This document shows, piece after piece, positions 1,812 through 57,515 of a stretch of 64,000 nt of DNA. Each line of letters begins with the position of its first letter. Positions within the stretch are counted from its first letter, which is position 1. This stretch comes from an uncultured Spirochaetota bacterium. Its GTDB lineage: Bacteria > Spirochaetota > Brevinematia > Brevinematales > JAOACQ01. The position numbers and the translations under genes were made by a program. Below the pieces are notes generated by a model that was not told where the DNA came from, did no database searches, and was given only the letters and a program-made list of their open reading frames with translations. The stretch covers positions 544,001-608,000 of the forward strand of contig CAVYGN010000002.1 of NCBI GenBank assembly GCA_963768055.1, written 5' to 3'.

Positions 1812-2156
1812 GGGGGCCGATTCGATCAATATGCATATCTGTTATGAAGTAAATTTTTTGCACCTGGATTCGATAGCTTGAGTTGCTAAGACTCAATACG
1901 GCTACAAGCGCTGATGGTATGCTTTTTAATAAAGAATTTTATATTTGTACTATATGAATTGATTAAATACAATGAGAGACGATGTTTAAGCGCTTGCTTT
2001 ACGCCGTTTTTCGTCTTGCAACTCTACGCTATCTTCATAAGGAGTGCAAAAAATTTACTTCAAGCAGCTTAGCTTATTGCTTAAAAATCTTCCATCCTTC
2101 CCACTGATTTCAAAACATTATGCTGTTTTTTGCGGGATGTTGTTTGAACAGGCTCT
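1812..2156. repeat. Rod-like hairpin repeat element, copy A
   Basis: Perfect 19-bp inverted repeat TGAAGTAAATTTTTTGCAC (1845-1863) / GTGCAAAAAATTTACTTCA (2044-2062) with nested inner stems; homologous copies at 34.5 and 57.3 kb. Confidence 0.8.
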
Positions 2157-2191
2157 AAATAGCCTCCTTTTCAGGAAATTTTTTACTTTTA

Positions 2192-2220
2192 TTGACCTAT
2201 TGCATCGTTTTTTATAGAAT
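2192..2220 (+). promoter_or_regulatory. Putative sigma70 promoter of purE
   Basis: TTGACC-N17-TAGAAT. Confidence 0.5.
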
Positions 2221-2295
2221 ATAACTGGTGTTATTCGCTAATTTGATGAACGTCGCAAGAACTGATATTGGAAAAAATAAGGTAAGGAGCAGGTT

Positions 2296-2796
2296 ATGGA
2301 TAAAGCTATGGTAGGCATAATAATGGGCAGCGATTCGGACCTGCCGGTCATGAGGGAAAGCGCAGAAATGCTTGAATATTTCGGCATTCCTTTTGAAATA
2401 ACAGTCATATCGGCGCACAGGACCCCTGAAAGGGCATTTGAATACGCGGGTTCAGCTGAAGCCAGGGGCCTGTCGGTAATAATCGCAGGAGCTGGCGGAT
2501 CGGCCCATCTCCCGGGGATTATTGCGGCTCTTACACCCATACCCGTGATAGGAGTACCCATCATGTCTAAAAGTCTCTCCGGAATGGACTCGCTGTTATC
2601 TATCGTGCAGATGCCCAGGGGAATACCCGTCGCGACAATGGCGGTTAACGGCGCCGCTAACGCTGGAATACTCGCCGTACAAATACTCGGCGTCGGAAAT
2701 GAAATTATTCGCGCCGGAATAAGGGAATACAAGAATAAATTAAAAGAAGAAACGGCCGGAAAGGCAAAAAAGGTCGAGGAAAGCTCCGGGGGTTAA
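2296..2796 (+). CDS. purE: N5-carboxyaminoimidazole ribonucleotide mutase
   Basis: [31 protein letters not shown] and [13 protein letters not shown] motifs. Confidence 0.97.
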
Positions 2797-2800
2797 CTAA

Positions 2801-3997
2801 TTGTTTAAAACCATTATAAATAGATTTACCAGCCTCCCCAGGGATTTTTTATTATTTATCTTCGCCATTTCGGTATTCAGCTTCGCACAGGGCATTGTCG
2901 ATTCAACTCTTAATAATTTTCTATATGAGACATTCAAAATATCATTTTTCCAGAGGGGCATGATCGAACTGCCCAGGGAAACGCCTGGATTTCTCGTCGT
3001 ATTTTTATCCGCCCTCCTGTTTTTTTTATGCAACAGGAGGCTTGCAGCCCTTGCAAACCTGATCGCCGGCCTTGGTATATTGTTAATCGGTTATTTTACC
3101 CGCAGTTTCAACTCCATGCTTGTTTTTTTATTTATCTTCAGTGTGGGACAGCATATTTTCCTTCCCCTTAATTCCGGAATTGGAATGGAACTGGCCCTCG
3201 AGGGAAGAACGGGAAGACGTCTCGGGCAGCTTAACGGCGCGGGAAATCTGTTCGGCATATTCGGAAGTTTCGTTATTTTTATCGGTTTCAAATATTTTCA
3301 TTTCGATTTCAAGGTTTCATTTCTAATCGCATCCATCGGTTTTATATGCGCCGGATCCTTCATCTATTTGATGAAGCGGAATAAACCCCTTCCGGTAAAA
3401 ACAAAATTCAGGCTGAGAAAGGAATATACGCTATTTTACTGGCTTAATATATTATACGGAACCAGAAAACAGATATTCCTTACATTCGCGCCCTGGGTCC
3501 TGGTATCGGTATTTTTCCAGAAAACATACGTCATCGGAATTTTACTTACTATAGGCGGCTTGATCGGCATCCTTTTTAAACCCTTGCTAGGCACCCTGAT
3601 CGACAGGCGCGGAGAAAGGTTCGTGCTTGCTGGAGAGGCGGTGATCCTGATTTTCGTGTGTTTTTTTTACGGGTTTTCAAAAATACTATTCAAACTTGAA
3701 ACCGCGATGTATATCTCTTTCGCCTGCTATGTTATCGACTATTTATTGATGTCCGTCACAATGGCAAGGGCCACATATCTGAAAAAGATAGCATTAAAAG
3801 AAGAAGACGTCTCCCAGACACTCACGATGGGAGTTTCAATTGATCATATGTTCTCGATCATCATAGCCGTATCGGGCGGGATAATCTGGCAATTCCTGGG
3901 CTACCAGTATATATTCCTGATCGGAAGCTGCATTGCGGCGATCAACCTCGTGTCGGTGCAGTTTATTAGGACAAAAGGTTATGAAATAACCGTTTAG
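2801..3997 (+). CDS. MFS transporter
   Basis: About 12 hydrophobic segments in 398 aa; GTLIDRRGER MFS loop motif. Confidence 0.85.
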   Translation: MFKTIINRFTSLPRDFLLFIFAISVFSFAQGIVDSTLNNFLYETFKISFFQRGMIELPRETPGFLVVFLSALLFFLCNRRLAALANLIAGLGILLIGYFTRSFNSMLVFLFIFSVGQHIFLPLNSGIGMELALEGRTGRRLGQLNGAGNLFGIFGSFVIFIGFKYFHFDFKVSFLIASIGFICAGSFIYLMKRNKPLPVKTKFRLRKEYTLFYWLNILYGTRKQIFLTFAPWVLVSVFFQKTYVIGILLTIGGLIGILFKPLLGTLIDRRGERFVLAGEAVILIFVCFFYGFSKILFKLETAMYISFACYVIDYLLMSVTMARATYLKKIALKEEDVSQTLTMGVSIDHMFSIIIAVSGGIIWQFLGYQYIFLIGSCIAAINLVSVQFIRTKGYEITV

Positions 3998-4065
3998 GGA
4001 TCACCACAGAGGCGCAAAGATCGCAAAGAGGAACAGAACGCAAAGTGTGCGGAGGTCGCAAAAAA
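3998..4065 (+). repeat. Left CGCAAAG-type periodic repeat flanking the dGTPase cassette
   Basis: GGATCACCACAGAGGCGCAAAGATCGCAAAG...CGCAAAG...CGCAAA; an inverted counterpart lies at 8797-8861. Confidence 0.75.
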
Positions 4066-4209
4066 TTTCAAGACTTCGAAATAAAATCCTTATCGCTTGA
4101 ATATTTTTTTCATTTTCTTTATTATATTTTAATATTTTGTTAATTTGTTTATACTAAATCACAGTCAACTATAGCAATTAGAATAGAATGAATGTAATAG
4201 GAGAAAACA

Positions 4210-5646
4210 ATGTATGAAAATTTATTTAAAGAAACAAGATTAAGAGAACCAAATAATTTGCGAGATCCAACAACAATTCATGATATATTTTTTGAAGAAA
4301 CCGAAAGTGACCGTGTTAGAATACTCTATTCAAGTCCATTCAGACATTTACAAAATAAAGCTCAGGTTTTTTCGCTTGAAGATAATCCTGACGTTCGTTC
4401 AAGGTTAACACATTCTTTAGAAGTCTAAAACATTGGAAGAAAGATTGCTTTAAAAGTGACTAACAAATTAATGGATAATAAATATTTGATTCCTTTTGTA
4501 AATATAGTAGAAAATTCATGTTTAATACATGATATTGGAAATCCTCCCTTCGGTCACTTTGGTGAAACCGCAATAAAAAAATGGTTTGAAGATAACTGGG
4601 GAAAATATGACATTCCATTGAATTCAGAGGAATTAACTTATTTTAAAAACAAAAATTTCTTAAATGATTTTCTATATTTTGATGGTAATCCTCAAGGAAT
4701 GAGAATAGTAATTCATTTACAAGAAGCATATCCAAATCATGATGATTTAGGATTTAATTTAACTTGCACACAATTATTAGCATCTCTTAAATATTTACGA
4801 TCAACAGATGAAGAATTTGAAGATAAAAAAATTTAAAAAAATATGGTTATTTTATAACCGAAAAAGAAAAAATTGATTTGGCAAGGAAAAAATTGAATTT
4901 CGGATCTGATAGGCGTTTTCCATTATCATATATAATAGAGGCTGCTGATGATATTTCTTACTGCTTGAGTGATATTGAAGATGGTATTGAAAAAGATCTT
5001 GTGAATTTTGAAGCTTTTTATAACCTTTTGTTAAAAACAGAGAATACTGAAATTTTGAAAGAGCTTAATGTTTATGAGAATCTTAATAAAAAAACTTAGT
5101 AATCCTGAGAAATTTTTTAATTTCAAAACATCTTTAGTTAAATCTTTAATAGAAAATTCAGCAAATCTATATTATCATAATCATGAAGAATTTTATAACG
5201 GCAAAAGACCGAATTTTTTTGAAGAAAGTTCTTGTGAATCAAAGATTCTTGATTTATTAAAAAAATTTTCAAGAATTAATTTATTCAGATCACCAGAAGC
5301 GGAAAATAAAGAATTAGCCGGACATAAAATTATTTCCGGAATTCTTGCTGCATATAAACCTTTACTAAGTATGAAATACAATGATTTTAAAATTTTGAAC
5401 GATGCAAAAATAAAATCAGAAGTGATTGGCAAAAAAGGATTGGATTATGAGTGGCGCCTATTTAATAAATTACCCGCAAAATATCTCTCGGCTTATGAGA
5501 AAAATGTTGATCAAAACATTAGTATGGAAGGAAAGCATGCATTAGAATTGTTTTTAAGAGCACATCTTATTGTTGATTATATAGCAGGAATGACTGACAA
5601 TAAAGCCTTAGAAATTTATCATTTACTTCAAGGAGTTGACTTTTAA
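4210..5646 (+). pseudogene. dgt: dGTP triphosphohydrolase (HD-family dGTPase), disrupted
   Basis: Four ORF pieces join into one protein of about 477 aa carrying FRHLQNKAQVF, RSRLTHSLEV, HDIGNPPFGHFGE, FDGNPQG, EAADDISY..DIEDG and DYIAGMTD. There is an in-frame TAA at 4426-4428 and frameshifts in A-tracts near 4825-4841 and 5088-5094. Confidence 0.9.
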
Positions 5647-5888
5647 TGGACTCTTACAATACTCATCCTATCACCTTGCTTATTGAATATATAAAAAACT
5701 TTTCTTTACAGCAAGCAGATTTTGAATTTAGTTGTTATATTGGTGGTGAGAGGAAAACAATAAAAAGAAGAATATTTAATTTAAAAGGTGTCGAGGACCG
5801 GGTAGATTCCCCAGTGGCAGGGCCATGAGATTCCCCACCTTTTCCTGAAAAATACCGTTCTTGATTTTAGAGAGAAATCATAAAACTT

Positions 5889-6635
5889 TCAAATAGTTTT
5901 CCCTTCCTTCCGGAAAGATTTTCCATCTTTGGATTTTACCAGGATTTTAATTGAGCCTGAAACAAGGCGGTCAAGCATAGCCCCTCCAATCACAGGATCA
6001 GGGAAGATTGCCAGCCAGTCCTCCGGAGGCCGGTTGCTTGTCAGAATAATGGACCTGTTTCCAAGCCTTTCATCGACAATCCGGTATAGGTATTCCGTTT
6101 CTTCATTGTCGAGTTTTTTAAATCCGAAATCGTCTATTATCAGGAGGTCTGTTTTAATACACTTTCTGAATAGAGTATTCTTAAACATAAGCTTTTCGCT
6201 TTTCAAGTCTTCAAGAAGAACCGCGGCTTTCTTGAAAAGAACTGTGTTTCCTCTTCTGCAGGCCTCATGGCCGACTGATTTTGCAATGCATGTTTTACCT
6301 ATGCCGGGAGGCCCGGCGATGACAACAAACTGTCTCATATCCATGAAACGGCAGGACGCGATTTCACGAATAAGCCTTGAAGGGATAGCGCTCTCATTGA
6401 AATTAAAATCAAACCCCTCGAAAGTGTTTTCCTGGCCGAACTTCGCTTCTCTCAGCCTCTTTTTGAGCATGTTATTATCCCTCTGGCATAATTCATCCTG
6501 AACTAACAAAGAGAAAAATTCTCCATAGTCCAGGTTTGATTCTTGAGCCTCCCTGATCCGCATAGGAAGGTTGAATAGCATCCCAGGAAGCTTTAACCTC
6601 CTTAAGTTTGCCTCAAGCTGATTCTGATGTTCCAT
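5889..6635 (-). CDS. istB: IS21 helper AAA+ ATPase
   Basis: Walker A GPPGIGKT, Walker B LLIIDDFG, TSNRPPEDW, AMLDRL. Confidence 0.95.
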   Translation of the reverse strand: MEHQNQLEANLRRLKLPGMLFNLPMRIREAQESNLDYGEFFSLLVQDELCQRDNNMLKKRLREAKFGQENTFEGFDFNFNESAIPSRLIREIASCRFMDMRQFVVIAGPPGIGKTCIAKSVGHEACRRGNTVLFKKAAVLLEDLKSEKLMFKNTLFRKCIKTDLLIIDDFGFKKLDNEETEYLYRIVDERLGNRSIILTSNRPPEDWLAIFPDPVIGGAMLDRLVSGSIKILVKSKDGKSFRKEGKTI

Positions 6636-6653
6636 ATTTCCTCCTCATTATCT

Positions 6654-8195
6654 CTATTGAAAGTAATAGCTGCCGTCCCTGGTCATTTCAGACCCTTCTT
6701 CTGAAATTTCAAACAGGGTGTCCTGTTTATCCTTTCCTTCATTTTCCATCCAGCTTTTGAATAGTTTGGGATCGGTTATTTTTGCCGATATTGCTCTTTC
6801 ACAGACTTTATTAAAGTATTCTTCTTTCGAGAATGTTTCCATTACACTTAAGAACCCCAGGGCCCTCCGGCAATTCAGATTAGCATGAACAGCAAGGATT
6901 TGAAAGATCAACTGGTATGCGGCTTCTCCGTATTTCCTCGACTGGTCTAATAAATACTTGGGGTATCCCCCGGATAGCATCTCCCTTGTATTCTCCGGAA
7001 AATCAGTCTTTTCATATGCTGCATGTCCTCTTGGTACGACAAATTCCCGGATAAGTTTGTACTGGAAGAAGATCTTCACTAAATTGCCGGTTCTCCTGAC
7101 AAAGACTTCCTCTCCACGATACCTGGGAGGCAGGGAATACCTCTTTTTCTCGAACTGGACAAATTGGTCCGGGTGTACCTTGGCCTTTTTCCATACGGGA
7201 GTCTTAAACCTTTCTTCAGGAAGCTTCTTAAGCAGGGGCTTCTCTATCGTTTCAAATACCTCTATTGGTTTCAAACCTGTTGTTCCATGGTTCCTCATCC
7301 CGTATTCATACCTGCACCATTCCAGAGCTTTGATGTTTAATTCCTTTAACGAGGCTCCGGGATTAAGGGCTTTAAGTTTTCTGAAAAGCTCTCTGGCAAC
7401 AGGGACCATTCTCTCTATCTTGGCTTTATCCTTTGGTTTCCTTACCCTGCAAGGATCAAGAAAAGTATTGTAATACTCCGCATAATCAGCATATGCCTGA
7501 TTATATTTAGGATCGTAAAGGTCCGGTGATATGATGCCGGTTTTCAGATTGTCCAGGGATATTCTTACAGGCACACCGCCGTAAAACTCCAGCATATCCA
7601 CATTGCTTTCAACGAATGATTCCTGGTTTTGTGAATAGACATATTGAACAAATGGCAGCCTTGAACTCGACATTATTCCGATAAAAGACTGCACGATCTT
7701 GTTGTGCCCCAGGTATTCCATTGTGCCGGCCCTGCCGTAGTCAAGCTGGATCTCCTGACCAGGGTTAGTTTCAATCCGGATGGTTTCCTTTAATTCTTTA
7801 GCTGTAAGGCCGCTCTTTATCGAGAATCTCTTGAAACTTGTATAGCTTATGTCCAGATTATGCCTTATACAGACAACTTCAAAGGCTGTCTTGGGTTTCA
7901 TTCCGTTTTTCGGGTCATTTATGAGCCCGTACAGCTCATCTTTATATCGTTCAAGTATGCTTGCCTTATTTTCATTTTTTGGAGGCCCTACAAAGGGGCG
8001 TTTCAGATGGAATTCTTCCCGGCTTATTGTTTCTCCCGCCTTTTCAAAGCCGTAATCGATAATTTTTTGAATCGCTAGTCGGACTGTTTTCCTATCCCTG
8101 TTTTCCTGTTCGGAAATTTCACTTATGCTTTGATCGGCTTTCCATCGTCTGTAAATGTCATAGTAATCCTGTTCGTTCATAAATCTGTACCCCAT
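6654..8195 (-). CDS. istA: IS21 DDE transposase
   Basis: N-terminal HTH, ETNPGQEIQLDYG, GGVP..ISLDNLKT, PKDKAKIER, YSLP. Confidence 0.95.
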   Translation of the reverse strand: MGYRFMNEQDYYDIYRRWKADQSISEISEQENRDRKTVRLAIQKIIDYGFEKAGETISREEFHLKRPFVGPPKNENKASILERYKDELYGLINDPKNGMKPKTAFEVVCIRHNLDISYTSFKRFSIKSGLTAKELKETIRIETNPGQEIQLDYGRAGTMEYLGHNKIVQSFIGIMSSSRLPFVQYVYSQNQESFVESNVDMLEFYGGVPVRISLDNLKTGIISPDLYDPKYNQAYADYAEYYNTFLDPCRVRKPKDKAKIERMVPVARELFRKLKALNPGASLKELNIKALEWCRYEYGMRNHGTTGLKPIEVFETIEKPLLKKLPEERFKTPVWKKAKVHPDQFVQFEKKRYSLPPRYRGEEVFVRRTGNLVKIFFQYKLIREFVVPRGHAAYEKTDFPENTREMLSGGYPKYLLDQSRKYGEAAYQLIFQILAVHANLNCRRALGFLSVMETFSKEEYFNKVCERAISAKITDPKLFKSWMENEGKDKQDTLFEISEEGSEMTRDGSYYFQ

Positions 8196-8796
8196 CCATT
8201 CCCCTCCGGTTTTTTCCGGAGAGTATGTTTGATTTTTTAGATTCTGAACAGGAAAAGGTGGGTGGGGAATCTCATGGCCCTATTTTGCCTTTTTACTGGG
8301 GAATCTGGGTGGCCCCGGACAAAAAGGAGAACAAATCAATATTCGTTGGCTTAAAACCATATTAAATTCGTTAGAAAAAAATGAGGAATTGGCCTTTCAT
8401 TCCTGTATATTAAAAGATAATGAATATTTATTTTTTCCTCTGATTGATTTTTGGGGGGAAGATTTTTTGAATGCAATAAAAGATCTAAAATTAAATCCGG
8501 AATTATTACATTTATATAAATCAGGTAGGTCTTATCATGGTTATTATTATAAACTTCTCAATAAAAATGATTGGGAAAAATTTTTAGGAAAACTTCTTTT
8601 ATTTAATCCTTTCGACTATAAACTTGAGCCATATGTGGATTTTAGATGGGTTGGGTATTCTTTGGAAAATGGTTATAGCGCTTTAAGGTGGAATAATAAT
8701 TCTTCAAGATATATTTCATATCCATTTTTATTTAATTTTAAAAATTTTTAACATTTTAAACTAAATAGTGAGGACATGTTTTTAAACAAACACACC

Positions 8797-8861
8797 ACTG
8801 CGGTCTTTGCATTCTTTGCGCCTTTATCCACACTGTGCACTTTGCGTCTTTGCGGTGATCC
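8797..8861 (-). repeat. Right (inverted) CGCAAAG-type periodic repeat flanking the dGTPase cassette
   Basis: The reverse complement of 8840-8861, GGATCACCGCAAAGACGCAAAG, matches 3998-4019 at 19/22 positions. Confidence 0.75.
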
Positions 8862-8864
8862 TCG

Positions 8865-9803: not shown

Positions 9804-9816
9804 TTCACTTCCCTGC

Positions 9817-11897: not shown

Positions 11898-11906
11898 GAG
11901 TAAAGT

Positions 11907-13808: not shown

Positions 13809-13832
13809 AAAAGGTCTTGGAAGGAGTTAACT

Positions 13833-28068: not shown

Positions 28069-28551
28069 TTATTCAACTCCGGCTTTTTTCAATATACCGA
28101 CTATGTCAGTAAACCCTTTTTCATTTGCATAAATTAAAGCCGTTTTTCTTTCCTTATTTTTAAGTTTTAAATCCGCTCCCGAGTAAACCAGGAGTTTTAC
28201 CGCTTCAGTCTGTCCTCTGGAGGCCGCCATCATCAGAGCGGTCTCCCCATAATTATTGTCCTGTGCATTTATATCGGCTTTAGCGCCGATCAGGAGCCTC
28301 ATTGCGTCAATCTGGCCGAAATAAGCCGCCAGCATTAAAGCCGTTACACCGTCCTTATTTTTCAAGTCGACATCGCATCCGGTTTTTATGTAGGAAGCAA
28401 TATAGGTTGTATCTCCGTTCACGGCTGCATCAAATATATTAACGCCGTATTTTTTTGAAGCCTTTGCATCCGGGCTGCAGCAGCTGAATAAGACAATTGA
28501 AATGAAAAATAAAACGATCATTACAACAGACCTTGATAAAGATTTCTTCAT
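28069..28551 (-). CDS. Ankyrin-repeat lipoprotein
   Basis: GVTALMLAA, GETALMMAA, KTALIYA; LFSCC lipobox-like motif. Confidence 0.9.
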   Translation of the reverse strand: MKKSLSRSVVMIVLFFISIVLFSCCSPDAKASKKYGVNIFDAAVNGDTTYIASYIKTGCDVDLKNKDGVTALMLAAYFGQIDAMRLLIGAKADINAQDNNYGETALMMAASRGQTEAVKLLVYSGADLKLKNKERKTALIYANEKGFTDIVGILKKAGVE

Positions 28552-34372: not shown

Positions 34373-34449
34373 AAAAAAACATGAATCATTTTAAGTTAAA
34401 AAAGGAATTATTACAATAAGGAACGATCGTCAGAAAAGGAGGCCATTTT

Positions 34450-34713
34450 GGGTCTGTTCAAACAACATTCTTCTGGATGAAGTCAATTTTTATCGAGCAG
34501 GACTCAAGAGTTCAAGCCCCCACAGATGACAAACTGATGGGGAGTTCAAAACAGCTACAAGTGCTGATTGAATACTTTTTTATAATGAAAATCTATTATT
34601 ATCTATATGAATCAACTAGAAAAAGAGAGGCCTGGTAAAGCACTTGCTAACGCTGTTTTTCACAGACGGTTTTACACTCTCTTCGTAAGACTCGATAAAA
34701 ATTGCTTCATCCA
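34450..34713 (+). repeat. Rod-like hairpin repeat element, copy B
   Basis: TGGATGAAGTCAATTTTTATCGAG (34474-34497) / CTCGATAAAAATTGCTTCATCCA (34691-34713); inner stems homologous to copy A. Confidence 0.8.
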
Positions 34714-34782
34714 TTAAGTATTTTGTTTTGAATCAGTAGAAAAGGACGGGGATTTTCTTACCAACATTTTTTAGCGCCATAT

Positions 34783-34907
34783 TTCTTTATCAAAAAAGCA
34801 TTCAATCAAACGCTTGCAGCCGTTTTGAGATGATGCAGTTCAAGTTTTCTGAATCAGGCGAGCTAAAAATTGACTCCATGCAATATGAATATTGCTTGAA
34901 CGGCCCC
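34783..34907 (-). repeat. Rod-like hairpin repeat element, half copy C (5' arm, inverted)
   Basis: The reverse complement shares GAAAACTTGAACTGCATCATCTCAAAACGGC with 57210-57240; it begins at the leuD stop codon. Confidence 0.8.
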
Positions 34908-35431
34908 TAATACTTCTTATCGGCATACTCCAGCCAGCCGCCTGCTTTGACAAGTTCGGCATCGAAAGGGTCAAGCTCGAATTGTATGGTATCTGAAGAC
35001 CCGCCGCTCTCAACCGTTAAAACGTGTTTATCGATATCTATCTTTACCGAAGCTTCTTTCGAATAGTATCTATCGAAAATCTTATCTATGGCCGATCCGG
35101 GAAGTTCGATCGCCAGCATTCCGCAGTTAAACATATTCTGCCTGAATATGCGGGCGAAGCTTTCAGCAATCACTGCGGTTATGCCGTTGACTTCAAGGGC
35201 CCATGGAGCATGTTCCCTGGATGAACCGCAGCCGAAGTCGGACCTGGCAATGATAACCCCTTTCCCCGGCAGATCTTTTTTCTGATCAAAGCCCTCAAGT
35301 TTTAAGTCTTCAAGACAGAAAGGTTTTAAAGCTTCCTTTGTAATCTCAGAAAGATATTTCGCAGGGATAATCTCGTCTGTATTAATGTCATTTTTATTTA
35401 AAAAGAGGATTTTTCCGCCGAATGTTTTCAT
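34907..35431 (-). CDS. leuD: Isopropylmalate dehydratase / aconitase-family small subunit
   Basis: DINTDEIIPAKYL, FGCGSSREHAPWAL, ESFARIF. Confidence 0.88.
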   Translation of the reverse strand: MKTFGGKILFLNKNDINTDEIIPAKYLSEITKEALKPFCLEDLKLEGFDQKKDLPGKGVIIARSDFGCGSSREHAPWALEVNGITAVIAESFARIFRQNMFNCGMLAIELPGSAIDKIFDRYYSKEASVKIDIDKHVLTVESGGSSDTIQFELDPFDAELVKAGGWLEYADKKY

Positions 35432-41576: not shown

Positions 41577-42302
41577 CTATTTAGCTCCGGCTTCTTTCAA
41601 GGCTTTAACCGCTTCATCCCTTCCGTAGTTAGTCGCCAGTATTAAAGCTGTTTTTCCGTTATTATCGGTTTTATTGATATCAGCCTTCGCTTCGATCAAT
41701 GCTTTAACTGTGTCGGCGTGCCCCCATTGGGCCGCAAACATTAAGGCCGTTGAACCCGTATCATTCACGGTATTGACGCTTGCCTTAGATTTGATCAATA
41801 ATTTAACGGCGTCAGTCCGCCCCAACCTTGCCGCATTCATCATAACCGTCGTACCGCCTTCATCCCTGCCGTTGACATCGCCCTTTGATTCAATCAATAA
41901 TTCGAGCGTGTCCAGGTTTCCACTTATGACCGCCCACATCAAAACCGTATTGCTATCTTTATCTACCGCGTTAACGAACGCTTTTGCATCAATCAAAGCC
42001 TTCACGGTTTCAGTGTGGCCTAATTCTGCCGCCCACATCAAAGCTGTCTTGCCATCCAAATCCCTGGCTTCGACATCAGCTCCATCCTGTATCAAAGCTT
42101 TTACAAAATCCGTTTGACCATTTTCAGCCGCGACAATTAAAGCGGTCTTTCCGTTTTTGACCCTGGCGTTGATATCGCCTTTAAAAGTCTTAATTGATGC
42201 GACATCCCCTTTAACGGCAGCATCGGCTATATGGCTTTCGCATGAATTAATCAGGGCATATGCGGGCATTGAGATCAAAATAAAAATCAAAAACTTTTTC
42301 AT
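41577..42302 (-). CDS. Exported ankyrin-repeat protein
   Basis: Six to seven 33-aa G.TAL..AA repeats. Confidence 0.93.
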   Translation of the reverse strand: MKKFLIFILISMPAYALINSCESHIADAAVKGDVASIKTFKGDINARVKNGKTALIVAAENGQTDFVKALIQDGADVEARDLDGKTALMWAAELGHTETVKALIDAKAFVNAVDKDSNTVLMWAVISGNLDTLELLIESKGDVNGRDEGGTTVMMNAARLGRTDAVKLLIKSKASVNTVNDTGSTALMFAAQWGHADTVKALIEAKADINKTDNNGKTALILATNYGRDEAVKALKEAGAK

Positions 42303-43700: not shown

Positions 43701-45434
43701 TTATATCCCATTATCAATTTTTAAATTAACCCCAATAGGCTCATTTCCATAATAATCAAAAAAGTCTTTCATGGTGTGAAGATGCTTAATATTATGAGAT
43801 AACATCCTCTGGATAAGCGATGAATTATATTTTTCATTTAAAAAATCATTTATATATCGGATTGGAATACGCTCCTTCTTGCAGAAATCCTCAATCTTTT
43901 TCCTCAGTTCGCTTTCAAATACCAGAAATGTATGGGGTTCCACCTCGATCACCTCATTCATGAAGTGGTCCTTTATCTTCGAAGAAAAATGAGCGCTGAC
44001 CTGAATGATCTTATAATTATTCATGTTTTCAAGAGAAAGGCTGTTAATAAAACTTTTTATACCTTCACTTACTATGTCGGGCACAGGATGCCGGGAATAG
44101 GAATTTAAAAATTCAAGGATTTCATCTTTTTTTATACCGTAAGCAAAGGACCTGTATATGGACTCCTTGGTTATTCGAAATATGGATATTGTCTGGATTG
44201 TAAGAGGCTCTGCGATCAGCGCAAGGCGGAATATGATATCCGGACGGACATAAGGCTCAACAATTATTTCGAAATTGGTCTCCACTACAAATTTATCATC
44301 CATAAATTGGTCGGTGAAATCCTTATTATTAAGAAGAGAGGCCTGAGGTTCGTTCATTATAATATAATCCGTCGCTATTGATATCACATCGGGATATTGC
44401 CGGTGTAATACTACAATATTTTCAGATTCCAGGTTTTTAACAAAAAACATGAATTTAAGTTCTTCCTGTTTAAGCATAAACCTGAGATTTTTAGGTTCAT
44501 TCTTTAAGGAGATATAAATCTCATTATTTAAATAATGGAAGAAGAGTTCGCGCAGCGGCATTCCGGTTTTCTGATGAAAAGTTTGAACAGCCAGTATTTT
44601 CAATGTCATAAATGCGCTTTTTCTGAAATCGAATTTATTCATGAATTCGTAAAGGAAAATAATAAAAAGCTGTTCATTAATGGAAAGGCTTATTATAGCG
44701 TCAAACAGCGATTTGTTTATAATAATCCTGTTGTTGAATTTTTGAAAAAAGCCGAAACGCGTAAGCTTTTTAATTACATGTTCCAGGTATTCTCTTTCAG
44801 CAAAATCAGAAAAAAATTCAAGCATTTTTGAGAGATCTATTTTATGGATCTCATTATTTTCAGAACTTCTGGGTGAAAAAGTAACAACATATGAAATCAA
44901 ACCGGCTATCAAGGGAATATACTGGCGGCTTAAAAGGTCCCTTGAAATAATAGGGCAGTCTTCCTCTCCGAAAATCTCGTCTTTTTTCACTGCGTTGGTA
45001 ATGTTTCTTAAAAATACCGGCGGAGAGAAAAAAAAGTTGTAATTTTTCAATCTTTCAAACTTGAAGAGGAGATATTTTTTAAATAGAGATTCAACTGCTT
45101 TTCCCAGTTCTTCGTAATCGTAATGAAAAATTTTGGAGATTATTTTAAGGTTAGATTCGATATTTTCATATACGATCCATCCGAAGCCGCTTTTCATTAT
45201 ATAAAGAAGTAGCTTCTCATATTTATTGAGCCCCGAATATATTTTCGGAGCGTTCTTCGAAAGAAATACGGAGACCTCTGCAAGCCTTCTTGTGTTTTCC
45301 ACACTATCGAAAGATAATTCGCTATCCGTGTTAAAAAAGTAATCGTATATTTTTTTGACAAGCATCGGCTCTTCTTTGATAAGCCAGTCCGATACCGACT
45401 TGCTCGACAATACACTGGATTGCCCCTGGAACAT
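43701..45434 (-). CDS. XPB-associated protein with helicase-associated domain
   Basis: VVETNFEIIV...FRITKESIYRS...I..FL..YSRHPVP; adjacent to XPB. Confidence 0.75.
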   Translation of the reverse strand: MFQGQSSVLSSKSVSDWLIKEEPMLVKKIYDYFFNTDSELSFDSVENTRRLAEVSVFLSKNAPKIYSGLNKYEKLLLYIMKSGFGWIVYENIESNLKIISKIFHYDYEELGKAVESLFKKYLLFKFERLKNYNFFFSPPVFLRNITNAVKKDEIFGEEDCPIISRDLLSRQYIPLIAGLISYVVTFSPRSSENNEIHKIDLSKMLEFFSDFAEREYLEHVIKKLTRFGFFQKFNNRIIINKSLFDAIISLSINEQLFIIFLYEFMNKFDFRKSAFMTLKILAVQTFHQKTGMPLRELFFHYLNNEIYISLKNEPKNLRFMLKQEELKFMFFVKNLESENIVVLHRQYPDVISIATDYIIMNEPQASLLNNKDFTDQFMDDKFVVETNFEIIVEPYVRPDIIFRLALIAEPLTIQTISIFRITKESIYRSFAYGIKKDEILEFLNSYSRHPVPDIVSEGIKSFINSLSLENMNNYKIIQVSAHFSSKIKDHFMNEVIEVEPHTFLVFESELRKKIEDFCKKERIPIRYINDFLNEKYNSSLIQRMLSHNIKHLHTMKDFFDYYGNEPIGVNLKIDNGI

Positions 45435-45445
45435 TTACTCCCCCT

Positions 45446-47134
45446 TTAATGTGCAGCCATTGCTTTGAAATTGGCAATATAATCTTTTTCGTTTGGATAT
45501 ATGATATTGTACTGGTATCCTTGCTCAAGCAGAAATAACTGCCTTTTTTTTGCAAATTCTTCTTCAATCGTATCTTTTGATACGAGCGTATAGAAATAAG
45601 ATTTGCCGGATTGCGGCCTCAGTATCCTACCCAATCTTTGAGCTTCTTCCTGCCTGGACCCGAATATTCCTGATACCTGAATGGCCACATCTGCTACAGG
45701 AAGATCTATTGAAAAATTACCAACCCTGGAAATAGCCAGGGCCGTGATATTTCCTTTTCTGAATTCCCTGTACATTATTTCCCTTTCCTGATTGGAGGTT
45801 TCACCCGTAATCAAAGGGATATTAAGCATATGTGAAATTTCTTCAAGCTGGGTAATATAATGGCCTATTATCAAGACATGATTATATTTGAATTTATCCA
45901 CCAGTTTTTTAACAATGCCATATTTATGAGTATTTTCCGATGCAATACGAAATTTATATCTCTGGTTAGAATTAAGGTATTCATTGTATTCTTTTTCACC
46001 TAAAGGAACCTTGATCTCGAAACAAATGGCCTGAGCTATCCAGCCCTCTTTTTCAAGAGCTTTCCATGGATACTCATATATTTTAGGACCTATAAGAGTG
46101 AATACTTCGCTCTCAAGGTTGTCCTCGCGGACAAGAGTGGCTGTTAATCCCAGCCTTCTTTTGGATTGAATGACTGTAGTCATCCGGAAAATAGGGGCCG
46201 GAAGAATATGGACCTCATCATAAATAATAAGGCCCCAGTTTTTATCGGTAAATATGTTTATATTTCGCATCTCTTCGCTTTTATTGTTTTTATGTATTAA
46301 CATATTATATGTCGTAATCGTTATAGGTTTGATATCTTTTACCTGGGCTGTGAATTCTCCAACCTCATCTCCCGTCAGGTTCGTTTTATCCAGGATTTCT
46401 CTTTTCCATTGTCTGATAGCTTCCACGCTTGTTGTAATAATGAGGGTATATTCGCCGATATCTCTCATGATACCGATTCCTACAATTGTTTTCCCGGCCC
46501 CGCAGGGGAGCACAATAATGCCGCTCCCTTCCCGCCATTTGGAAAAACTATATACGGCTTCAGACTGATAATATCTTAATGCAAAATCTTTTTCCTCAAG
46601 GCTGATTTTCCTGAAATCCATGTCTATTTTATTCCCGCTTTCAAATCCCGCAATATCCTTAACAGGGATCAAATGCTTTATCAATTCAGTTTTAATAGTT
46701 CCGCGCCATCTTTTTTCGACAATAAACTCGGAACTATTCTTTTCTTCAACAATGTACTTTTCAATCAGAGATTTTACTTTATCGGTCAACTTCTGGTCTT
46801 CGACACGGATTGCCATCATCGGATCTTCGGCTCTTCCAAAAATCACCTTTCCATAAATGGAAAAATGTTTCTTTATATACTCTACGACATTCTTCGGGAT
46901 ATCATATTTCTTATATATTTCAAGAGTTTCCATGATTTCTTCAAGAGATACTCCGTTAGCCGCAGAATTCCAGAGAGAAATAGGCGTTATCCTGTAAAAA
47001 TGAATGTGTTCGGGAGTTTTGATCAATTCGGAGAAATTAACAAGCCTCTTCCTGACCTCTTCGAACCTGGGATGATGGGCATCGAGCAATATAGATTTAT
47101 CTGATTGTATAGTTATTACCTTGTTATCTTCCAT
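45446..47134 (-). CDS. XPB/Ssl2/Rad25-like DNA helicase
   Basis: KTPEHIHFYRITPISLWN, LPCGAGKT, DEVH, GLTATLVRED, QEEAQRLGRILR. Confidence 0.93.
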   Translation of the reverse strand: MEDNKVITIQSDKSILLDAHHPRFEEVRKRLVNFSELIKTPEHIHFYRITPISLWNSAANGVSLEEIMETLEIYKKYDIPKNVVEYIKKHFSIYGKVIFGRAEDPMMAIRVEDQKLTDKVKSLIEKYIVEEKNSSEFIVEKRWRGTIKTELIKHLIPVKDIAGFESGNKIDMDFRKISLEEKDFALRYYQSEAVYSFSKWREGSGIIVLPCGAGKTIVGIGIMRDIGEYTLIITTSVEAIRQWKREILDKTNLTGDEVGEFTAQVKDIKPITITTYNMLIHKNNKSEEMRNINIFTDKNWGLIIYDEVHILPAPIFRMTTVIQSKRRLGLTATLVREDNLESEVFTLIGPKIYEYPWKALEKEGWIAQAICFEIKVPLGEKEYNEYLNSNQRYKFRIASENTHKYGIVKKLVDKFKYNHVLIIGHYITQLEEISHMLNIPLITGETSNQEREIMYREFRKGNITALAISRVGNFSIDLPVADVAIQVSGIFGSRQEEAQRLGRILRPQSGKSYFYTLVSKDTIEEEFAKKRQLFLLEQGYQYNIIYPNEKDYIANFKAMAAH

Positions 47135-47276
47135 AACCCCTCTCATGGACCACTGGAAAAAGATATTTATTTTAAAAGGAAGACAACTATTCGTCAAATG
47201 AAAATCATGTCTTTGTTTTTCCCTCTATGTTTACAACTCTCCATTTATCCTTTATAATGAAATAAGGAGGAAATTA

Positions 47277-48260
47277 ATGAAAATAATAATGCCGATTGCC
47301 GGTATTGGTACAAGGCTTCGACCCCAAACTCATATGATCCCGAAATCATTGATTCGCGTAGCCGGCAAACCGATTATTGGATACATAATGGAACAAATTC
47401 AGAATATAAATTTTTCAGAGATAATTTTTATAATCGGCCATCTAGGGGACCAGATTAAAACTTACCTTCGAACAACGTATCACTTTCAGATGAAATTCAT
47501 CAGACAAACGGATTATATAGGACTTGGCCATGCCATCGACCAGGCTAAAAATGAATTTTCCCAGGATGAATCCGTATTGATAGTATTGGGCGATATCATA
47601 TTTACGTCCGACATAGCAGAAATTGTAGGCTCTACTCATAACATGATAGGTATTATGAAACCGGAAGATCCGAAGAAATACGGCATAGTAACGGTTAATG
47701 AAGAGGGCTATGTGACAAGCATGATCGAAAAACCTGAAAATCCTCCATGCGACCTGGCGATCGGCGGAATATATTATTTTACAAGCGCTTTCAATCTCTT
47801 CAAATCTATAAAATTCCTTATCGATGAAAAAATTAAGACCAGGGATGAGTATCAGCTTACCGACGCAATGAGAATCATGCTTGATAAGGGTGAGAAATTT
47901 AAAACATTTAATATGTCCGAATGGTATGATTGCGGTGAAAAAGAGTCTCTCCTCCAGACAAATAAGGTAATGCTGGAAAGGCATGCAACAAATGATAAAA
48001 TCCCCGGCTGTATTATCAATCCCCCGGTTTTTATCGGCCATGATTCTAAGATTGAAAATTCTATTATAGGCCCATATGTATCCATATCGGAGAATTCCTG
48101 CGTAAAAAACGCTCTGATAACAAATTCCATTTTGGGTATTGAGACGGTTGTTGAAAATACAATACTTGACAGTTCCCTTATCGGCGATAATTCATTTTTA
48201 TCTGAAGCCCCCAAGGAGTTTAATGTCGGTCCTGATTCGGAGATTATATTCACAAAATAG
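47277..48260 (+). CDS. Sugar-phosphate nucleotidyltransferase (glucose-1-phosphate thymidylyltransferase-like)
   Basis: AGIGTRLRP.T...PK, GLGHA, EKP, C-terminal hexapeptide repeats. Confidence 0.9.
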   Translation: MKIIMPIAGIGTRLRPQTHMIPKSLIRVAGKPIIGYIMEQIQNINFSEIIFIIGHLGDQIKTYLRTTYHFQMKFIRQTDYIGLGHAIDQAKNEFSQDESVLIVLGDIIFTSDIAEIVGSTHNMIGIMKPEDPKKYGIVTVNEEGYVTSMIEKPENPPCDLAIGGIYYFTSAFNLFKSIKFLIDEKIKTRDEYQLTDAMRIMLDKGEKFKTFNMSEWYDCGEKESLLQTNKVMLERHATNDKIPGCIINPPVFIGHDSKIENSIIGPYVSISENSCVKNALITNSILGIETVVENTILDSSLIGDNSFLSEAPKEFNVGPDSEIIFTK

Positions 48261-48269
48261 GTCTTTTGA

Positions 48270-49085
48270 ATGATAAATAAAAAAGTCCTGTCCATAGCCG
48301 GTTCCGATCCCTCCGGTGGAGCCGGTATCCAGGCGGATTTAAAGACATTCACATCCCTGGGTGTTTATGGAGGCGCTGTAATAACAAGCCTGACTGTCCA
48401 GAACTCGACAGGGGTAAAGAAAATCGTCTGTCTGGATCCCGATTTTGTAAAGGCGCAACTTATTGCGGTGTTTGAAGATATCGATATATCCTTTATAAAG
48501 ATCGGTATGCTCGGAAATTCATCTATCGCTAAGGCGGTCGGCGAATCTGTCAAAAACAGGTTTTTGATCTGTGATCCTGTATTTTTTTCAAAAGCCGGGA
48601 TGAGCCTTCTTGAAAATGATTCCCTGGAAATTTTTGAGAATTACATTGCTTCAGAAAGTACTGTTTTAACTCCCAATTACAATGAACTCATGATTTTATC
48701 CGGTTCCGGAGAAGATGACCCTGTAAAAGCGGGTGAAGCTGTTCTCAATAAGTTTGGTAAACTTAAAGCCCTGGTACTAAAAGGGGGGCATATAAACATA
48801 AACTCTTCCTCCTCTGTCGATATTCTCCTGTTAAAAGACGGGCTGTCTGTATCCAGGCACGATTTCTCCCATCCCCGTATCAAAACAGACAATACTCATG
48901 GAACGGGCTGCACTTTTTCTTCCGCTCTTACAGCATATCTCGCAATGGGGAAGAGTATAACACAATCTGTTCAATTGGCATCCAATTACGTTCATAAATT
49001 GATAAAACTTGCTTCCGGAATCAAGTTAGGCAAAGGAAACGGGCCGCTCCCTCATTTCATGCTGAATAAAGGCTGCGGCAATTAA
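48270..49085 (+). CDS. thiD: Hydroxymethylpyrimidine/phosphomethylpyrimidine kinase
   Basis: IAGSDPSGGAGIQADLKTF, KIGML, THGTGCTFS. Confidence 0.96.
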   Translation: MINKKVLSIAGSDPSGGAGIQADLKTFTSLGVYGGAVITSLTVQNSTGVKKIVCLDPDFVKAQLIAVFEDIDISFIKIGMLGNSSIAKAVGESVKNRFLICDPVFFSKAGMSLLENDSLEIFENYIASESTVLTPNYNELMILSGSGEDDPVKAGEAVLNKFGKLKALVLKGGHININSSSSVDILLLKDGLSVSRHDFSHPRIKTDNTHGTGCTFSSALTAYLAMGKSITQSVQLASNYVHKLIKLASGIKLGKGNGPLPHFMLNKGCGN

Positions 49086-49096
49086 GGGGGGATAAT

Positions 49097-50380
49097 ATGA
49101 CTCAAATAGAATCTGCAAAAAAAGGAATTTTTACGCCTGAAATGAAAGTCATATCCGAGGAAGAAAATTTTAACCGCGATCTGCTTATTGAAAAAATTGC
49201 GGCCGGTCAGATAGTAATACTAAAGAATTCAATCCATGATATCAAACCGGTCGGCGTCGGCTCCGGCTTAAGAACCAAGGTCAATGCCAATATTGGCAGT
49301 TCGCCTGAAAAGATGGAACTGGATTTTGAATTGGCTAAACTGGCCGTATCGGAGAAGTACGGCGCCGATACTGTAATGGATTTAAGCCTCGGGGTTATAA
49401 TTAACGAAGTCAGGAAGAAGGTGATTGAAAAATCTTCCATCCCGGTAGGAACTGTGCCGATTTACCAGGCCGGCTTCGAAATTTCAATGAAAAAAAAGAA
49501 GATCCAGGAATTGACAATTGATGACTTTTGTGCAGTTTTAGAATCCCAGGGTGAGGAAGGTGTTGATTTCGTTACAATACATTCAGGGGTGACATTAAAA
49601 TCCTGGGATTATATAAAGCAGAAAAGCCGCCTGCTCGATGTCGTGAGCAGGGGAGGATCAATGCTCTGTGTATGGATGGAACATAATGGCAAAGAAAATC
49701 CATTATATACTCATTTCGATAAAATCCTCGAAATAGCGTATAGGTACGATATGACAATAAGCCTTGGGGATGGAATGAGGCCCGGCGCGACATCGGACGC
49801 GTCGGACAGCGCTCAGATGGAAGAATTAATAACACTTGGAAACCTTGCCCGCAGGGCGCACGAAGCCAATGTACAGGTTATAATAGAAGGTCCCGGTCAT
49901 GTAGCTCTGGATCAGGTTGTCTCGAATATTTTGCTCCAAAAATCCCTGTGCAGCGGTGCGCCATTCTATATTCTTGGCCCCCTGGTCACCGATATCGCAT
50001 CCGGTTACGATCACATTTCAGGGGCCATAGGCGGAGCCCTGGCCGCTTCAGCAGGCGCCGATTTTCTCTGCTATGTTACCCCGGCTGAACACCTCTCGCT
50101 ACCCGATCTTGATGATGTGAAGCAGGGGGTTATAGCAAGCCGCATAGCCGCCCATGCCGCGGATATGGTTAAATACGGAAATAAATTTAAAAAAATAGAC
50201 AATGAAATGTCGCTTGCAAGGAAAAAGCTTGATTGGGAAACAATGTACCGCCTGTCAATAGATCCTGAAAATGCCCGTAAAAGAAGGGAAATGAGCGGTG
50301 CAGTTTCCAAGGATTACTGTACTATGTGCGGGGAATTCTGCAGCGTGCGTGCACTCAACCGGATTGAAAATTTATTCTAA
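49097..50380 (+). CDS. thiC: Phosphomethylpyrimidine synthase
   Basis: TKVNANIG, VSRGGS, EGPGH, GYDHI, CTMCG..C. Confidence 0.95.
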   Translation: MTQIESAKKGIFTPEMKVISEEENFNRDLLIEKIAAGQIVILKNSIHDIKPVGVGSGLRTKVNANIGSSPEKMELDFELAKLAVSEKYGADTVMDLSLGVIINEVRKKVIEKSSIPVGTVPIYQAGFEISMKKKKIQELTIDDFCAVLESQGEEGVDFVTIHSGVTLKSWDYIKQKSRLLDVVSRGGSMLCVWMEHNGKENPLYTHFDKILEIAYRYDMTISLGDGMRPGATSDASDSAQMEELITLGNLARRAHEANVQVIIEGPGHVALDQVVSNILLQKSLCSGAPFYILGPLVTDIASGYDHISGAIGGALAASAGADFLCYVTPAEHLSLPDLDDVKQGVIASRIAAHAADMVKYGNKFKKIDNEMSLARKKLDWETMYRLSIDPENARKRREMSGAVSKDYCTMCGEFCSVRALNRIENLF

Positions 50381-50484
50381 TGGCGAAGCGCCCAAATATC
50401 TTATTCTTCCGCTTTTTGACATTTTTTCTAAATATATTATACTCTAAACAACTTTAAATAAAAACATACCCTCATTAAGGATAA

Positions 50485-52364: not shown

Positions 52365-52365
52365 T

Positions 52366-56901: not shown

Positions 56902-56927
56902 TCATTTCACATTAATTTTCTTTAGTC

Positions 56928-56988
56928 CCTACCTATAGTCGGCTATAATCCCCCCCTATGGTCTGGTAATAATCCGACCTTCGGGATA
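56928..56988. promoter_or_regulatory. Three degenerate palindromic boxes at a 23-bp period (putative operators)
   Basis: CCTACCTATAGTCGG (56928), CCCCCCTATGGTCTG (56951), CCGACCTTCGGGATA (56974). Confidence 0.5.
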
Positions 56989-57091
56989 TTTTATTTTTCG
57001 CAGGATAAATTAAAATATCACTGCGAAAAAAGTTAACTTGCGCAAAAGAAAATCCTCAAATGAATTATTACAAAAAGACCCCCTAGACACA

Positions 57092-57147
57092 CCCCCATGA
57101 AAGGGAAGCGGAGACAAGACCGCTGCCCGCTTTGTGGGGGATTTTTT
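57092..57147 (+). terminator. GC-rich imperfect hairpin followed by a T-run
   Basis: CCCCCA..AAAG..AGCGG/CCGCT..CTTT..TGGGGG then ATTTTTT. Confidence 0.5.
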
Positions 57148-57148
57148 A

Positions 57149-57250
57149 TGGTCGAATCGATTAATATGCAAATCTCTTTTATGGAGTCAATTTTTATCCC
57201 GCTGGATTCGAAAACTTGAACTGCATCATCTCAAAACGGCGGCAAGCGCT
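57149..57250 (+). repeat. Rod-like hairpin repeat element, half copy D (5' arm)
   Basis: ATGGAGTCAATTTTTA...CTTGAACTGC...AAAACGGC..CAAGCGCT, immediately followed by copy E. Confidence 0.75.
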
Positions 57251-57515
57251 GGGGGCCGAACTGATCAATATGCAGATTACTTTATGAAGTAAATTTTTTT
57301 ACCGCGCTGAGTTCACAAGCTTGAACTGCAATGCTTTAAAACTGTCGCAAGCGCTGATGGAATTCTTTTTTAATAAAAAATTATTTTATCAATATGAGAT
57401 TATTAAAATATAACGTGCGGCCTCAGTTAAGCGCTTGCTCCAGTTTTTCAGCGGCAGTTCTTACGCTTGCTCATAACGCGCGTAAAAAATTTAACTTCAA
57501 ATAACCTTCATATTG
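57251..57515 (+). repeat. Rod-like hairpin repeat element, copy E
   Basis: Starts GGGGGCCGAACTGATCAATATGCA like copy A; TGAAGTAAATTTTTTTACCGCGC / GCGCGTAAAAAATTTAACTTCA. Confidence 0.8.

What the first reader, a model, noticed from the sequence alone, without database searches (positions are those of the whole stretch)
1812..57515. Dispersed 220-250 nt rod-shaped hairpin family with compensatory mutations (5 copies in 64 kb)
Seen: full copies at about 1812-2080 (A), 34450-34713 (B) and 57251-57515 (E), and 5'-arm-only copies at 34907-34783 (C, minus strand) and 57149-57250 (D). The sequences have diverged but pairing is kept. Outer stem: TTTTTTGCAC/GTGCAAAAAA (A), TTTTTATCGAG/CTCGATAAAAA (B). 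Inner stems: CAAGCGCT/AGCGCTTG (A, E) versus CAAGTGCT/AGCACTTG (B); GAGTTGC/GCAACTC (A) versus GAACTGC/GCAGTTC (E); ACGGC/GCCGT (A) versus ACAGC/GCTGT (B). The AT-rich central loop is also similar in length and motifs (CTGAT.G.AT.CTTTTT...TATGA). No ORF explains it. Inference: selection acts on a folded RNA or ssDNA structure, pointing to an unannotated multicopy ncRNA or a non-autonomous mobile element.
Basis: partly seen in the sequence, partly recalled or inferred. Interest (0 to 1): 0.75.

Follow-up and report, generated by a model that had tools for sequence, protein, structure and literature searches.

The report
Dispersed hairpin repeat family in spirochete
Three non-coding 290-360 base foldback repeats and two half copies sit between housekeeping genes of an uncultured spirochete; their two arms change together so pairing is kept, which fits the known class of small selfish hairpin repeats better than a new kind of RNA gene.

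Summary
The window holds exactly eight homologous arms: three full hairpin elements (A 1809-2172, B 34433-34762, E 57251-57540) and two solo 5' arms (C 34921-34775 minus, D 57128-57250), and nothing else. Each full copy folds into a rod (z -4.5 to -6.0). Each 5' arm matches its own 3' arm far better than another copy's (81/59/81 against 22-39). 15 of 56 consensus pairs show changes on both sides, against 6.9 +/- 1.9 in shuffles.

The arms co-evolve, but nothing points specifically to an RNA. Both strands fold equally well and wobble pairs are rare on either. No Rfam family matches. No ORF is conserved. The copies lie between predicted terminators and promoters.

No target-site duplication, partner transposase or outside copy was found. 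My one genome-collection scan returned only chance hits, so copy number, mobility and distribution in relatives remain unchecked.

Best reading: a lineage-specific MITE/REPIN-like foldback repeat in a Brevinematia-like genome. It is a new member of a known kind and of modest interest.

The parts
1809..2172 (+). Full element A. 5' arm 1812-1913, AT-rich centre 1914-1987, 3' arm 1988-2080, private insertion 2081-2136, terminal segment 2137-2172.
   Evidence: The terminal segment is 89% complementary to B's leader (I2).
34433..34762 (+). Full element B. 5' arm 34433-34566 with a private insertion of about 19-26 nt near 34517-34541, centre 34567-34635, 3' arm 34636-34762.
34775..34921 (-). Solo 5' arm C with about 30 nt of centre. 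Its outer GGGG end overlaps the leuD stop codon (34907-34909). It lies about 19 nt from the end of B.
   Evidence: 97% complementary to D over 39 nt (I1). The best-scoring pair of different arms is C with D, at 88% identity and score 117.
57128..57250 (+). Solo 5' arm D. It stops at CAAGCGCTG, exactly where the centre should begin, and abuts the start of E. Its start overlaps a terminator-like site at 57126-57138.
57251..57540 (+). Full element E. 5' arm 57251-57357, centre 57358-57428, 3' arm 57429 to about 57540.

Best explanation
This is a lineage-specific family of non-coding foldback repeats, that is, small selfish hairpin DNA of the MITE/REPIN type, in the chromosome of a Brevinematia-like spirochete.

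Anatomy: a unit has two arms of about 115 nt in inverted orientation around a conserved, asymmetric centre of about 75 nt and 22-25% GC.

Inferred mechanism:
- The unit is copied, or was copied in the past, by a trans-acting enzyme encoded outside this window.
- That enzyme needs the element folded as a single strand. A 75-nt centre makes cruciform extrusion from duplex DNA unlikely, so the fold forms in single-stranded DNA or in RNA.
- Only lineages that keep both arms complementary go on being copied, which yields compensated differences between copies.
- Templated correction between the arms may contribute as well.
- Solo arms are dead remnants, possibly created when a new copy lands in or beside an old one.

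Shown: the family, its hairpin, the co-evolution of arms, the absence of coding and its intergenic placement.

Inferred: mobility, the single-stranded intermediate and the origin of the solo arms.
For: - Family: 8 arms, no other hits.
- Fold: rod-like, both as RNA and as DNA.
- Arm co-evolution: own arms score 81/59/81 against 22-39 for cross-copy pairs. 15 of 56 pairs are compensated, against 6.9 +/- 1.9 in shuffles.
- No strand preference: both strands fold equally well and pairing is almost purely Watson-Crick (211 WC, 4 + 2 wobble-type, 34 transversion mismatches). This fits a DNA-level or strand-neutral constraint.
- Common ancestry: mismatches and bulges are shared by all three copies, for example 5' T(C/T)AAAAC opposite 3' GTTTTTC (visible in the alignments). 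The copies therefore descend from an ancestor that already had two arms, not from independent inverted duplications.
- Even divergence: 5' arm, centre and 3' arm have diverged equally (62-68% identity), as expected for a diversified repeat family.
- Non-coding.
- Placement: all three sites are intergenic and lie between predicted terminators and promoters of housekeeping genes.
- Solo arms: both (2 of 2) lie next to a full copy.
- Precedent in print: REPINs are inverted doublets that form hairpins in ssDNA or mRNA, with common compensatory changes and singlets read as remnants (PMC3116915, passages read). bcr1 shows compensatory changes, and Chunjie MITEs of 178-235 bp reach about -98 to -130 kcal/mol (PMC3184786, passages read). 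MITEs are abundant in Spirochaetes genomes (PMC11602168, passages read).
Against: - No consistent target-site duplication at any boundary choice. The best candidates are AT-rich 6-7-mers at non-homologous positions.
- The outermost ends are the least conserved part and come in at least three forms, unlike classical transposase-bound terminal repeats.
- Among 62 of the 64 ORFs selected, plus the open-ended ORF 1-1719, the only transposition genes are IS21 istA/istB. That element's ends are unrelated to the family's ends.
- No copy was found outside the window. All 13 loci from the genome-collection scan are chance matches (nhmmer E >= 0.02). There was no plasmid hit and only three 36-nt chance hits in phages.
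- Copies are about 35% diverged, so there is no sign of recent movement.
- Nesting of E inside the D element is only suggestive (39 of 500 shuffles score as well).
Confidence: 0.55

Rival explanations
1. A multicopy structured non-coding RNA gene. Each full copy would be transcribed as a rod-like RNA of about 250-300 nt, whose helices are kept by selection and whose AT-rich apical region or double-stranded stem is the functional part, for example an RNase III substrate or a small-RNA precursor.
For: Significant folds. Compensated pairs. Internal loops conserved across copies. The centre is as conserved as the arms. Transitions make up 60 of 116 differences in paired columns against 23 of 77 in the centre, the direction expected if changes pass through wobble intermediates.
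Against: No strand asymmetry in folding energy or in G.U against A.C. Standing wobble pairs are rare. No conserved promoter or terminator belongs to the unit. No Rfam match even at E <= 5. The per-column transition test is not significant (p = 0.11). Copies 35% diverged within one genome, together with truncated half copies, are unusual for RNA genes.
Confidence: 0.15
2. There is no selection on the fold. The arms stay alike through a mutational process, namely template switching within quasipalindromes or gene conversion between the arms of one copy, acting on otherwise neutral inverted repeats.
For: Pairing is almost purely Watson-Crick and equal on both strands. All parts diverge at the same rate, with no slowing in the stems. 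The transition enrichment among compensated pairs is not significant. That quasipalindrome correction produces such two-sided changes is recalled knowledge and was not checked in a paper here.
Against: Mismatches and asymmetric bulges shared by all three copies have not been erased (alignments). This process does not explain why the family is dispersed or why its asymmetric centre is conserved, so it can only be part of the story.
Confidence: 0.15
3. A host cis-acting intergenic module. It would act as a bidirectional transcription stop or insulator, a 3'-end stabiliser of messenger RNA, or a protein-binding DNA site, recruited between transcription units.
For: All three sites separate transcription units. 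A lies between divergent promoter-like sites at 1778-1751 (minus strand) and 2192-2220 (plus strand). B and C lie between the leuD stop and the pheS promoter-like site at 34416-34388. D and E lie between a terminator-like site at 57126-57138 and tRNA-Ala.
Against: The scans found no terminator-like site inside any copy. Only three sites occur in 64 kb among dozens of intergenic regions. The half copies and private insertions look like decay, not like a maintained module. The promoter and terminator calls are consensus matches only.
Confidence: 0.1

Closest known systems
REPINs (REP doublets forming hairpins) mobilised by RAYT transposases
   Same: Two homologous units in inverted orientation around a spacer form a long hairpin in ssDNA or mRNA. 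Compensatory changes across the hairpin are common. Singlets exist and are read as remnants. The elements are extragenic and have no ORF (PMC3116915, abstract and passages read).
   Different: REPINs are about 71-110 bp and built from short conserved REP sequences (invariant 16-mers in that paper). Here the arms are about 115 nt, the unit is 290-360 nt, and it is AT-rich with a 75-nt conserved centre. No RAYT or Y1-transposase gene lies in the window.
Bacterial MITEs with whole-length hairpin potential (Chunjie, Nezha, Correia/nemis)
   Same: Size of 130-290 bp, AT-rich, intergenic, non-coding, and with very stable predicted folds (Chunjie about -98 to -130 kcal/mol) (PMC3184786, passages read). 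MITEs are numerous in Spirochaetes genomes (PMC11602168, passages read).
   Different: Those families have defined terminal inverted repeats shared with an insertion sequence, and flanking direct repeats. Here the ends are the most variable part, no direct repeats were found, and the only insertion sequence in the window has unrelated ends.
bcr1 repeats of the Bacillus cereus group
   Same: A dispersed repeat of about 155 bp in which compensatory base changes maintain a folded structure (PMC3184786, passage read).
   Different: bcr1 is described as a cruciform-like fold with two stem-loops, is flanked by 5-bp direct repeats and is shown to be transcribed. Here the fold is a single rod, no direct repeats were found and there are no expression data. 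Sequence similarity was not tested because no bcr1 sequence was available.
Integron attC sites
   Same: Imperfect palindromes that act as folded single strands, with structure rather than sequence conserved and with conserved unpaired bases (recalled, not checked in a paper here).
   Different: attC sites are recalled as about 57-141 bp, arranged in cassette arrays next to an integrase. Here the units are 290-360 nt, lie 22-32 kb apart among housekeeping genes, and no integrase is present.

Membership tests
Classical MITE | Small size, no ORF, long inverted arms | tested here: met
   Units of 290-360 nt with arms complementary over about 85-115 nt. No conserved ORF.
Classical MITE | Flanking target-site duplication | tested here: not met
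   A brute-force scan of all boundaries within about 30 nt of the homology ends of A, B, E, D+E and B+C found only AT-rich 4-7-mers at non-homologous positions. With three old copies and fuzzy ends this is weak negative evidence.
Classical MITE | Terminal repeats shared with an autonomous insertion sequence | tested here: not met
   The only insertion sequence in the window is IS21 at 5789-8321. Its TGTC...GACA ends are unrelated to the family's ends. The rest of the genome could not be searched.
Classical MITE | Filled and empty sites in related genomes | not testable with these tools
REPIN/RAYT system | Doublet of short conserved REP sequences in inverted orientation | tested here: not met
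   The inverted-doublet architecture is present, but the arms are about 115 nt at 39-45% GC and the unit is three to four times longer than the 71-110 bp REPINs in PMC3116915.
REPIN/RAYT system | Associated RAYT (IS200-like tyrosine transposase) gene | tested here: inconclusive
   None was found among 62 of the 64 selected ORFs plus ORF 1-1719 in this 64 kb. RAYTs are typically single-copy per genome (abstract listed), so absence from one window says little.
Any Rfam RNA family | Covariance-model match | tested here: not met
   No hit in any copy at the gathering threshold or at E <= 5. 4227 families were searched.
Integron attC | Position at cassette ends in an array with an integrase | tested here: not met
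   The copies are 22-32 kb apart between purE, pheS/leuD and tRNA-Ala, with no integrase.

The most novel reading that the evidence does not exclude
The family is a previously undescribed class of long (about 300 nt) hairpin replicator. It would move through a folded single-stranded intermediate without target duplication and would preferentially land in or next to the apex of resident copies, leaving the solo 5' arms seen beside B and E. It would be driven by an unidentified enzyme in an almost unstudied spirochete class. Alternatively, the same rods are transcribed and act as a new family of double-stranded regulatory RNAs.
Probability: 0.12. Interest if true: 0.65.

Novelty: new member of a known kind. 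Interest (0 to 1): 0.3.

Why it matters
If it is a MITE/REPIN-like repeat, this is one more lineage-specific family. Its use is practical: it marks intergenic repeats that can confuse assembly, gene calling and searches for small RNAs in Brevinematia genomes, and it gives a handle on the within-genome dynamics of selfish DNA in a poorly known spirochete class.

It would matter more if a full-genome census showed one of three things: many copies with strand-biased wobble pairs (a new RNA), self-targeted nested insertion, or a new enzyme family that recognises 100-bp bulged hairpins.

Tried and rejected
- Rfam: searched at the gathering threshold and at E <= 5. No match in any copy.
- Genome-collection scan: I used a motif matching 4 of the 8 arms (AATATKCA, gap of 4-12, ATGRAGTMAATTTTT). 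It returned 13 loci in unrelated taxa, none with a real family match (best nhmmer E 0.023). The three weak hits in L005 turned out to be other repeats.
- Plasmid and phage collections: no plasmid hit and three 36-nt chance hits in Staphylococcus phages.
- Coding hypothesis: rejected. The parallel small ORFs in the 3' arms read the conserved motif in three different frames. The 5'-arm ORF M(E/K)SIF... is open in B, C and D but stops after two codons in A and E. 0 of 10 ORFs are in the protein collection, so I ran no further search on them.
- T-box or leader of pheS: rejected. There is no Rfam hit, and A and E are not next to aminoacyl-tRNA synthetase genes.
- Three-arm attenuator idea (a solo arm competing for the neighbour's 3' arm): rejected. 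D with E's 3' arm scores 44 against 81 for E's own arm. C with B's 3' arm scores 36 against 59.
- Large inversion or composite transposon bounded by C and D: considered, because these are the most similar arms and are inverted 22 kb apart (I1). Only the arms are shared, and the genes between them are housekeeping (leuCD, hydrogenase, thiamine genes). I did not pursue it further.
- E nested inside the D element: the sequence after E resembles the start of a centre, but not significantly.
- IS21 as partner: its ends are unrelated.
- Resemblance of the GGGG... ends to Tn3-family terminal repeats: this is a recollection only, untested, and not relied on.
- Covariance model: not built. With three sequences and no further DNA to search it would only have found its own inputs again; nhmmer --max was used instead.
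- Literature: searches for Brevinema/Brevinematales/Brevinematia (249 papers, 15 listed by title and abstract start) and for spirochete MITE and stem-loop terms turned up no description of this element. Only listings were seen for those papers.
Full report
**What is there**

Reading the three regions and scanning the whole window for repeats confirm a dispersed family. An alignment of the five copies has 44 invariant columns in the shared 5' part.

I built a profile from the five 5' arms and the reverse complements of the three 3' arms and searched the window with all filters off. It finds exactly those eight arms (E from 3e-29 to 1.6e-19). The next hit has E = 2.6. So the window holds three full elements and two solo 5' arms, and no further copy.

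- A runs from about 1809 to 2172. Its 3' arm carries a private 57-nt insertion (2081-2136). Its last 36 nt are 89% complementary to the first 36 nt of B (I2).
- B spans 34433-34762.
- E spans 57251 to about 57540.
- C (34921-34775, minus strand) keeps about 30 nt of the centre.
- D (57128-57250) stops exactly at the stem/centre boundary and abuts the first base of E.

**Fold and covariation**

Each full copy folds into one long rod. The RNA minimum free energy is -85, -74 and -79.6 kcal/mol (z -5.6, -4.5, -6.0), and 0 of 200 shuffles fold as well. With DNA parameters A gives -46.3 kcal/mol, z -6.1.

RNAalifold on A, B and E predicts 56 consensus pairs, 15 of them with a change on both sides. 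On that structure 87.3% of cells pair. Shuffles give 6.9 +/- 1.9 two-sided pairs, and 0 of 500 reach 15. Sliding the 3' partner by 1-3 columns gives 1-6.

Pairwise arm comparisons are independent of any fold prediction. They show that each 5' arm matches the reverse complement of its own 3' arm (scores 81, 59, 81) far better than that of another copy (22-39). Equivalent arms of different copies score 40-74 on the 5' side and 51-67 on the 3' side.

Under a model of one near-perfect master copy followed by neutral decay, cross-copy arm complementarity should be about as high as same-arm similarity. It is not, so the arms of each copy have changed together.

Some non-paired features are shared by all three copies. 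Examples are the 5' T(C/T)AAAAC opposite 3' GTTTTTC, and extra bases on the 3' side next to the CAAGCGCT/AGCGCTTG helix (alignments). The copies therefore descend from an ancestor that already had two arms.

**RNA, DNA or neither**

Nothing singles out an RNA:
- The two strands fold equally well (A -110.6/-109.3, B -90.0/-91.6, E -87.0/-97.4 kcal/mol).
- In direct arm-to-arm alignments there are 211 Watson-Crick positions, 4 G.U-type and 2 A.C-type cells, and 34 transversion mismatches. Wobble pairs are rare and not biased to one strand.
- The 5' arm, centre and 3' arm have diverged equally (62-68% identity in every pairwise comparison). The centre is 22-25% GC against 39-45% in the arms.
- Between copies, transitions make up 60 of 116 differences in paired columns but 23 of 77 in the centre. 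This is the direction expected if compensation passes through wobble intermediates. Counted per column it is 8 transition-only pairs of 15 against 10 of 38 centre columns, p = 0.11, which is a trend only.

I therefore cannot separate selection on a fold from templated correction between the arms.

A centre of about 75 nt makes cruciform extrusion from duplex DNA unlikely (established knowledge of cruciforms, recalled). Any fold would therefore form in single-stranded DNA or in RNA.

**Coding and known families**

No ORF is conserved. ORFs of 36-41 codons in the 3' arms of A, B and E read the conserved AAGCGCTTGCT motif in three different frames. The M(E/K)SIF... frame in the 5' arm is open in B, C and D but is ATG-AAG-TAA in A and E. 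None of the 10 candidate ORFs is in the 15-billion-protein collection.

Rfam gives no hit in any copy at the gathering threshold or at E <= 5.

**Context**

The best named PheS relatives are from Brevinematia and other Spirochaetota metagenome-assembled genomes. The window's own protein sits on a 1.89-Mb contig.

The window is ordinary chromosome. It carries purE, pheST, leuCD, flagellar genes with fliW-csrA, hydrogenase and thiamine genes.

The three sites are placed as follows:
- A lies between divergent promoter-like sites (1778-1751 minus strand, 2192-2220 plus strand).
- B and C lie between the leuD stop codon, which overlaps C's GGGG end, and a pheS promoter-like site.
- D and E lie between a terminator-like site (57126-57138) and tRNA-Ala.

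These are consensus matches only. Taken at face value, they place the copies outside the neighbouring transcription units.

**Evidence on mobility**

No consistent target-site duplication was found at any plausible boundary. The outermost ends are the least conserved part and occur in at least three forms.

The only transposition genes are those of an IS21 element (5789-8321). They were found among 62 of the 64 selected ORFs plus the open-ended ORF 1-1719. That element's ends are unrelated to the family.

Both solo arms lie beside a full copy. The 20 nt after E resemble the start of a centre, which would make E a nested insertion into the D element. That similarity is not significant (39 of 500 shuffles).

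**Outside the window**

It returned 13 loci in unrelated taxa, and none holds a family member. There was no plasmid hit and only chance 36-nt phage hits.

Copy number in the source genome, presence in relatives, and filled or empty sites all remain unchecked. This is the main weakness of the verdict.

**Comparison with what is known**

The architecture works like a REPIN. Two homologous units in inverted orientation around a spacer form a hairpin 'in ssDNA or mRNA', compensatory changes are common, and singlets are interpreted as defunct remnants (PMC3116915, abstract and passages). It also resembles hairpin-forming MITEs such as Chunjie and the bcr1 repeat with its compensatory changes (PMC3184786, passages). 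MITEs are reported as abundant in Spirochaetes genomes (PMC11602168, passages).

It is not shown to be a member of any of these. It has no short REP core, no RAYT in the window, no target duplication and no cognate insertion sequence. At 290-360 nt with a conserved asymmetric centre it is unusually long.

Two literature searches found no description of such an element in Brevinematia or other spirochetes (listings only).

**Verdict**

The kind of object, a dispersed non-coding hairpin repeat with compensated arms, is already known. I rate it a new member of a known kind with interest 0.3.

There is a 0.12 chance that a full-genome census would reveal something more unusual: a self-targeting single-strand hairpin replicator with a new enzyme, or a true double-stranded RNA family.

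Noticed in passing
window 5789-8321: An IS21-family element on the minus strand: istA 6654-8195 and istB 5889-6635, with imperfect terminal inverted repeats and an inner perfect 21-nt inverted repeat at 5819-5839 / 8261-8281.
   Followed up: partly
window 4210-5646: A dGTP triphosphohydrolase-like gene is split into several short ORFs. The pieces match profile positions 100-215 and 324-499 of 500, so it is probably a pseudogene.
   Followed up: no
window 8389-8751: An archaeo-eukaryotic-primase-like ORF starts at profile position 23 of 133, immediately beside the IS21 end. It may have been truncated by the insertion.
   Followed up: no
window 47200-50380: The thiD and thiC genes have no TPP riboswitch match in Rfam, even at E <= 5.
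   Followed up: no
window 34517-34541 and 2081-2136: Private insertions sit inside the arms. B's 5' arm has an insertion of about 19-26 nt that is itself a small hairpin. A's 3' arm has a 57-nt insertion.
   Followed up: partly
window 57545-57565: The sequence just after E resembles the start of a family centre, as in C. This suggests that E is nested in the D element, but the similarity is not significant (39 of 500 shuffles).
   Followed up: yes
window 57787-57887: tRNA-Ala (anticodon GGC) is followed by a strong terminator-like hairpin of 11 pairs at 57862-57887.
   Followed up: no
window 43701-47197 and 28069-28551, 41577-42302: A pair of XPB/Rad25-like helicase genes and two ankyrin-repeat proteins, which are uncommon in bacteria.
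   Followed up: no
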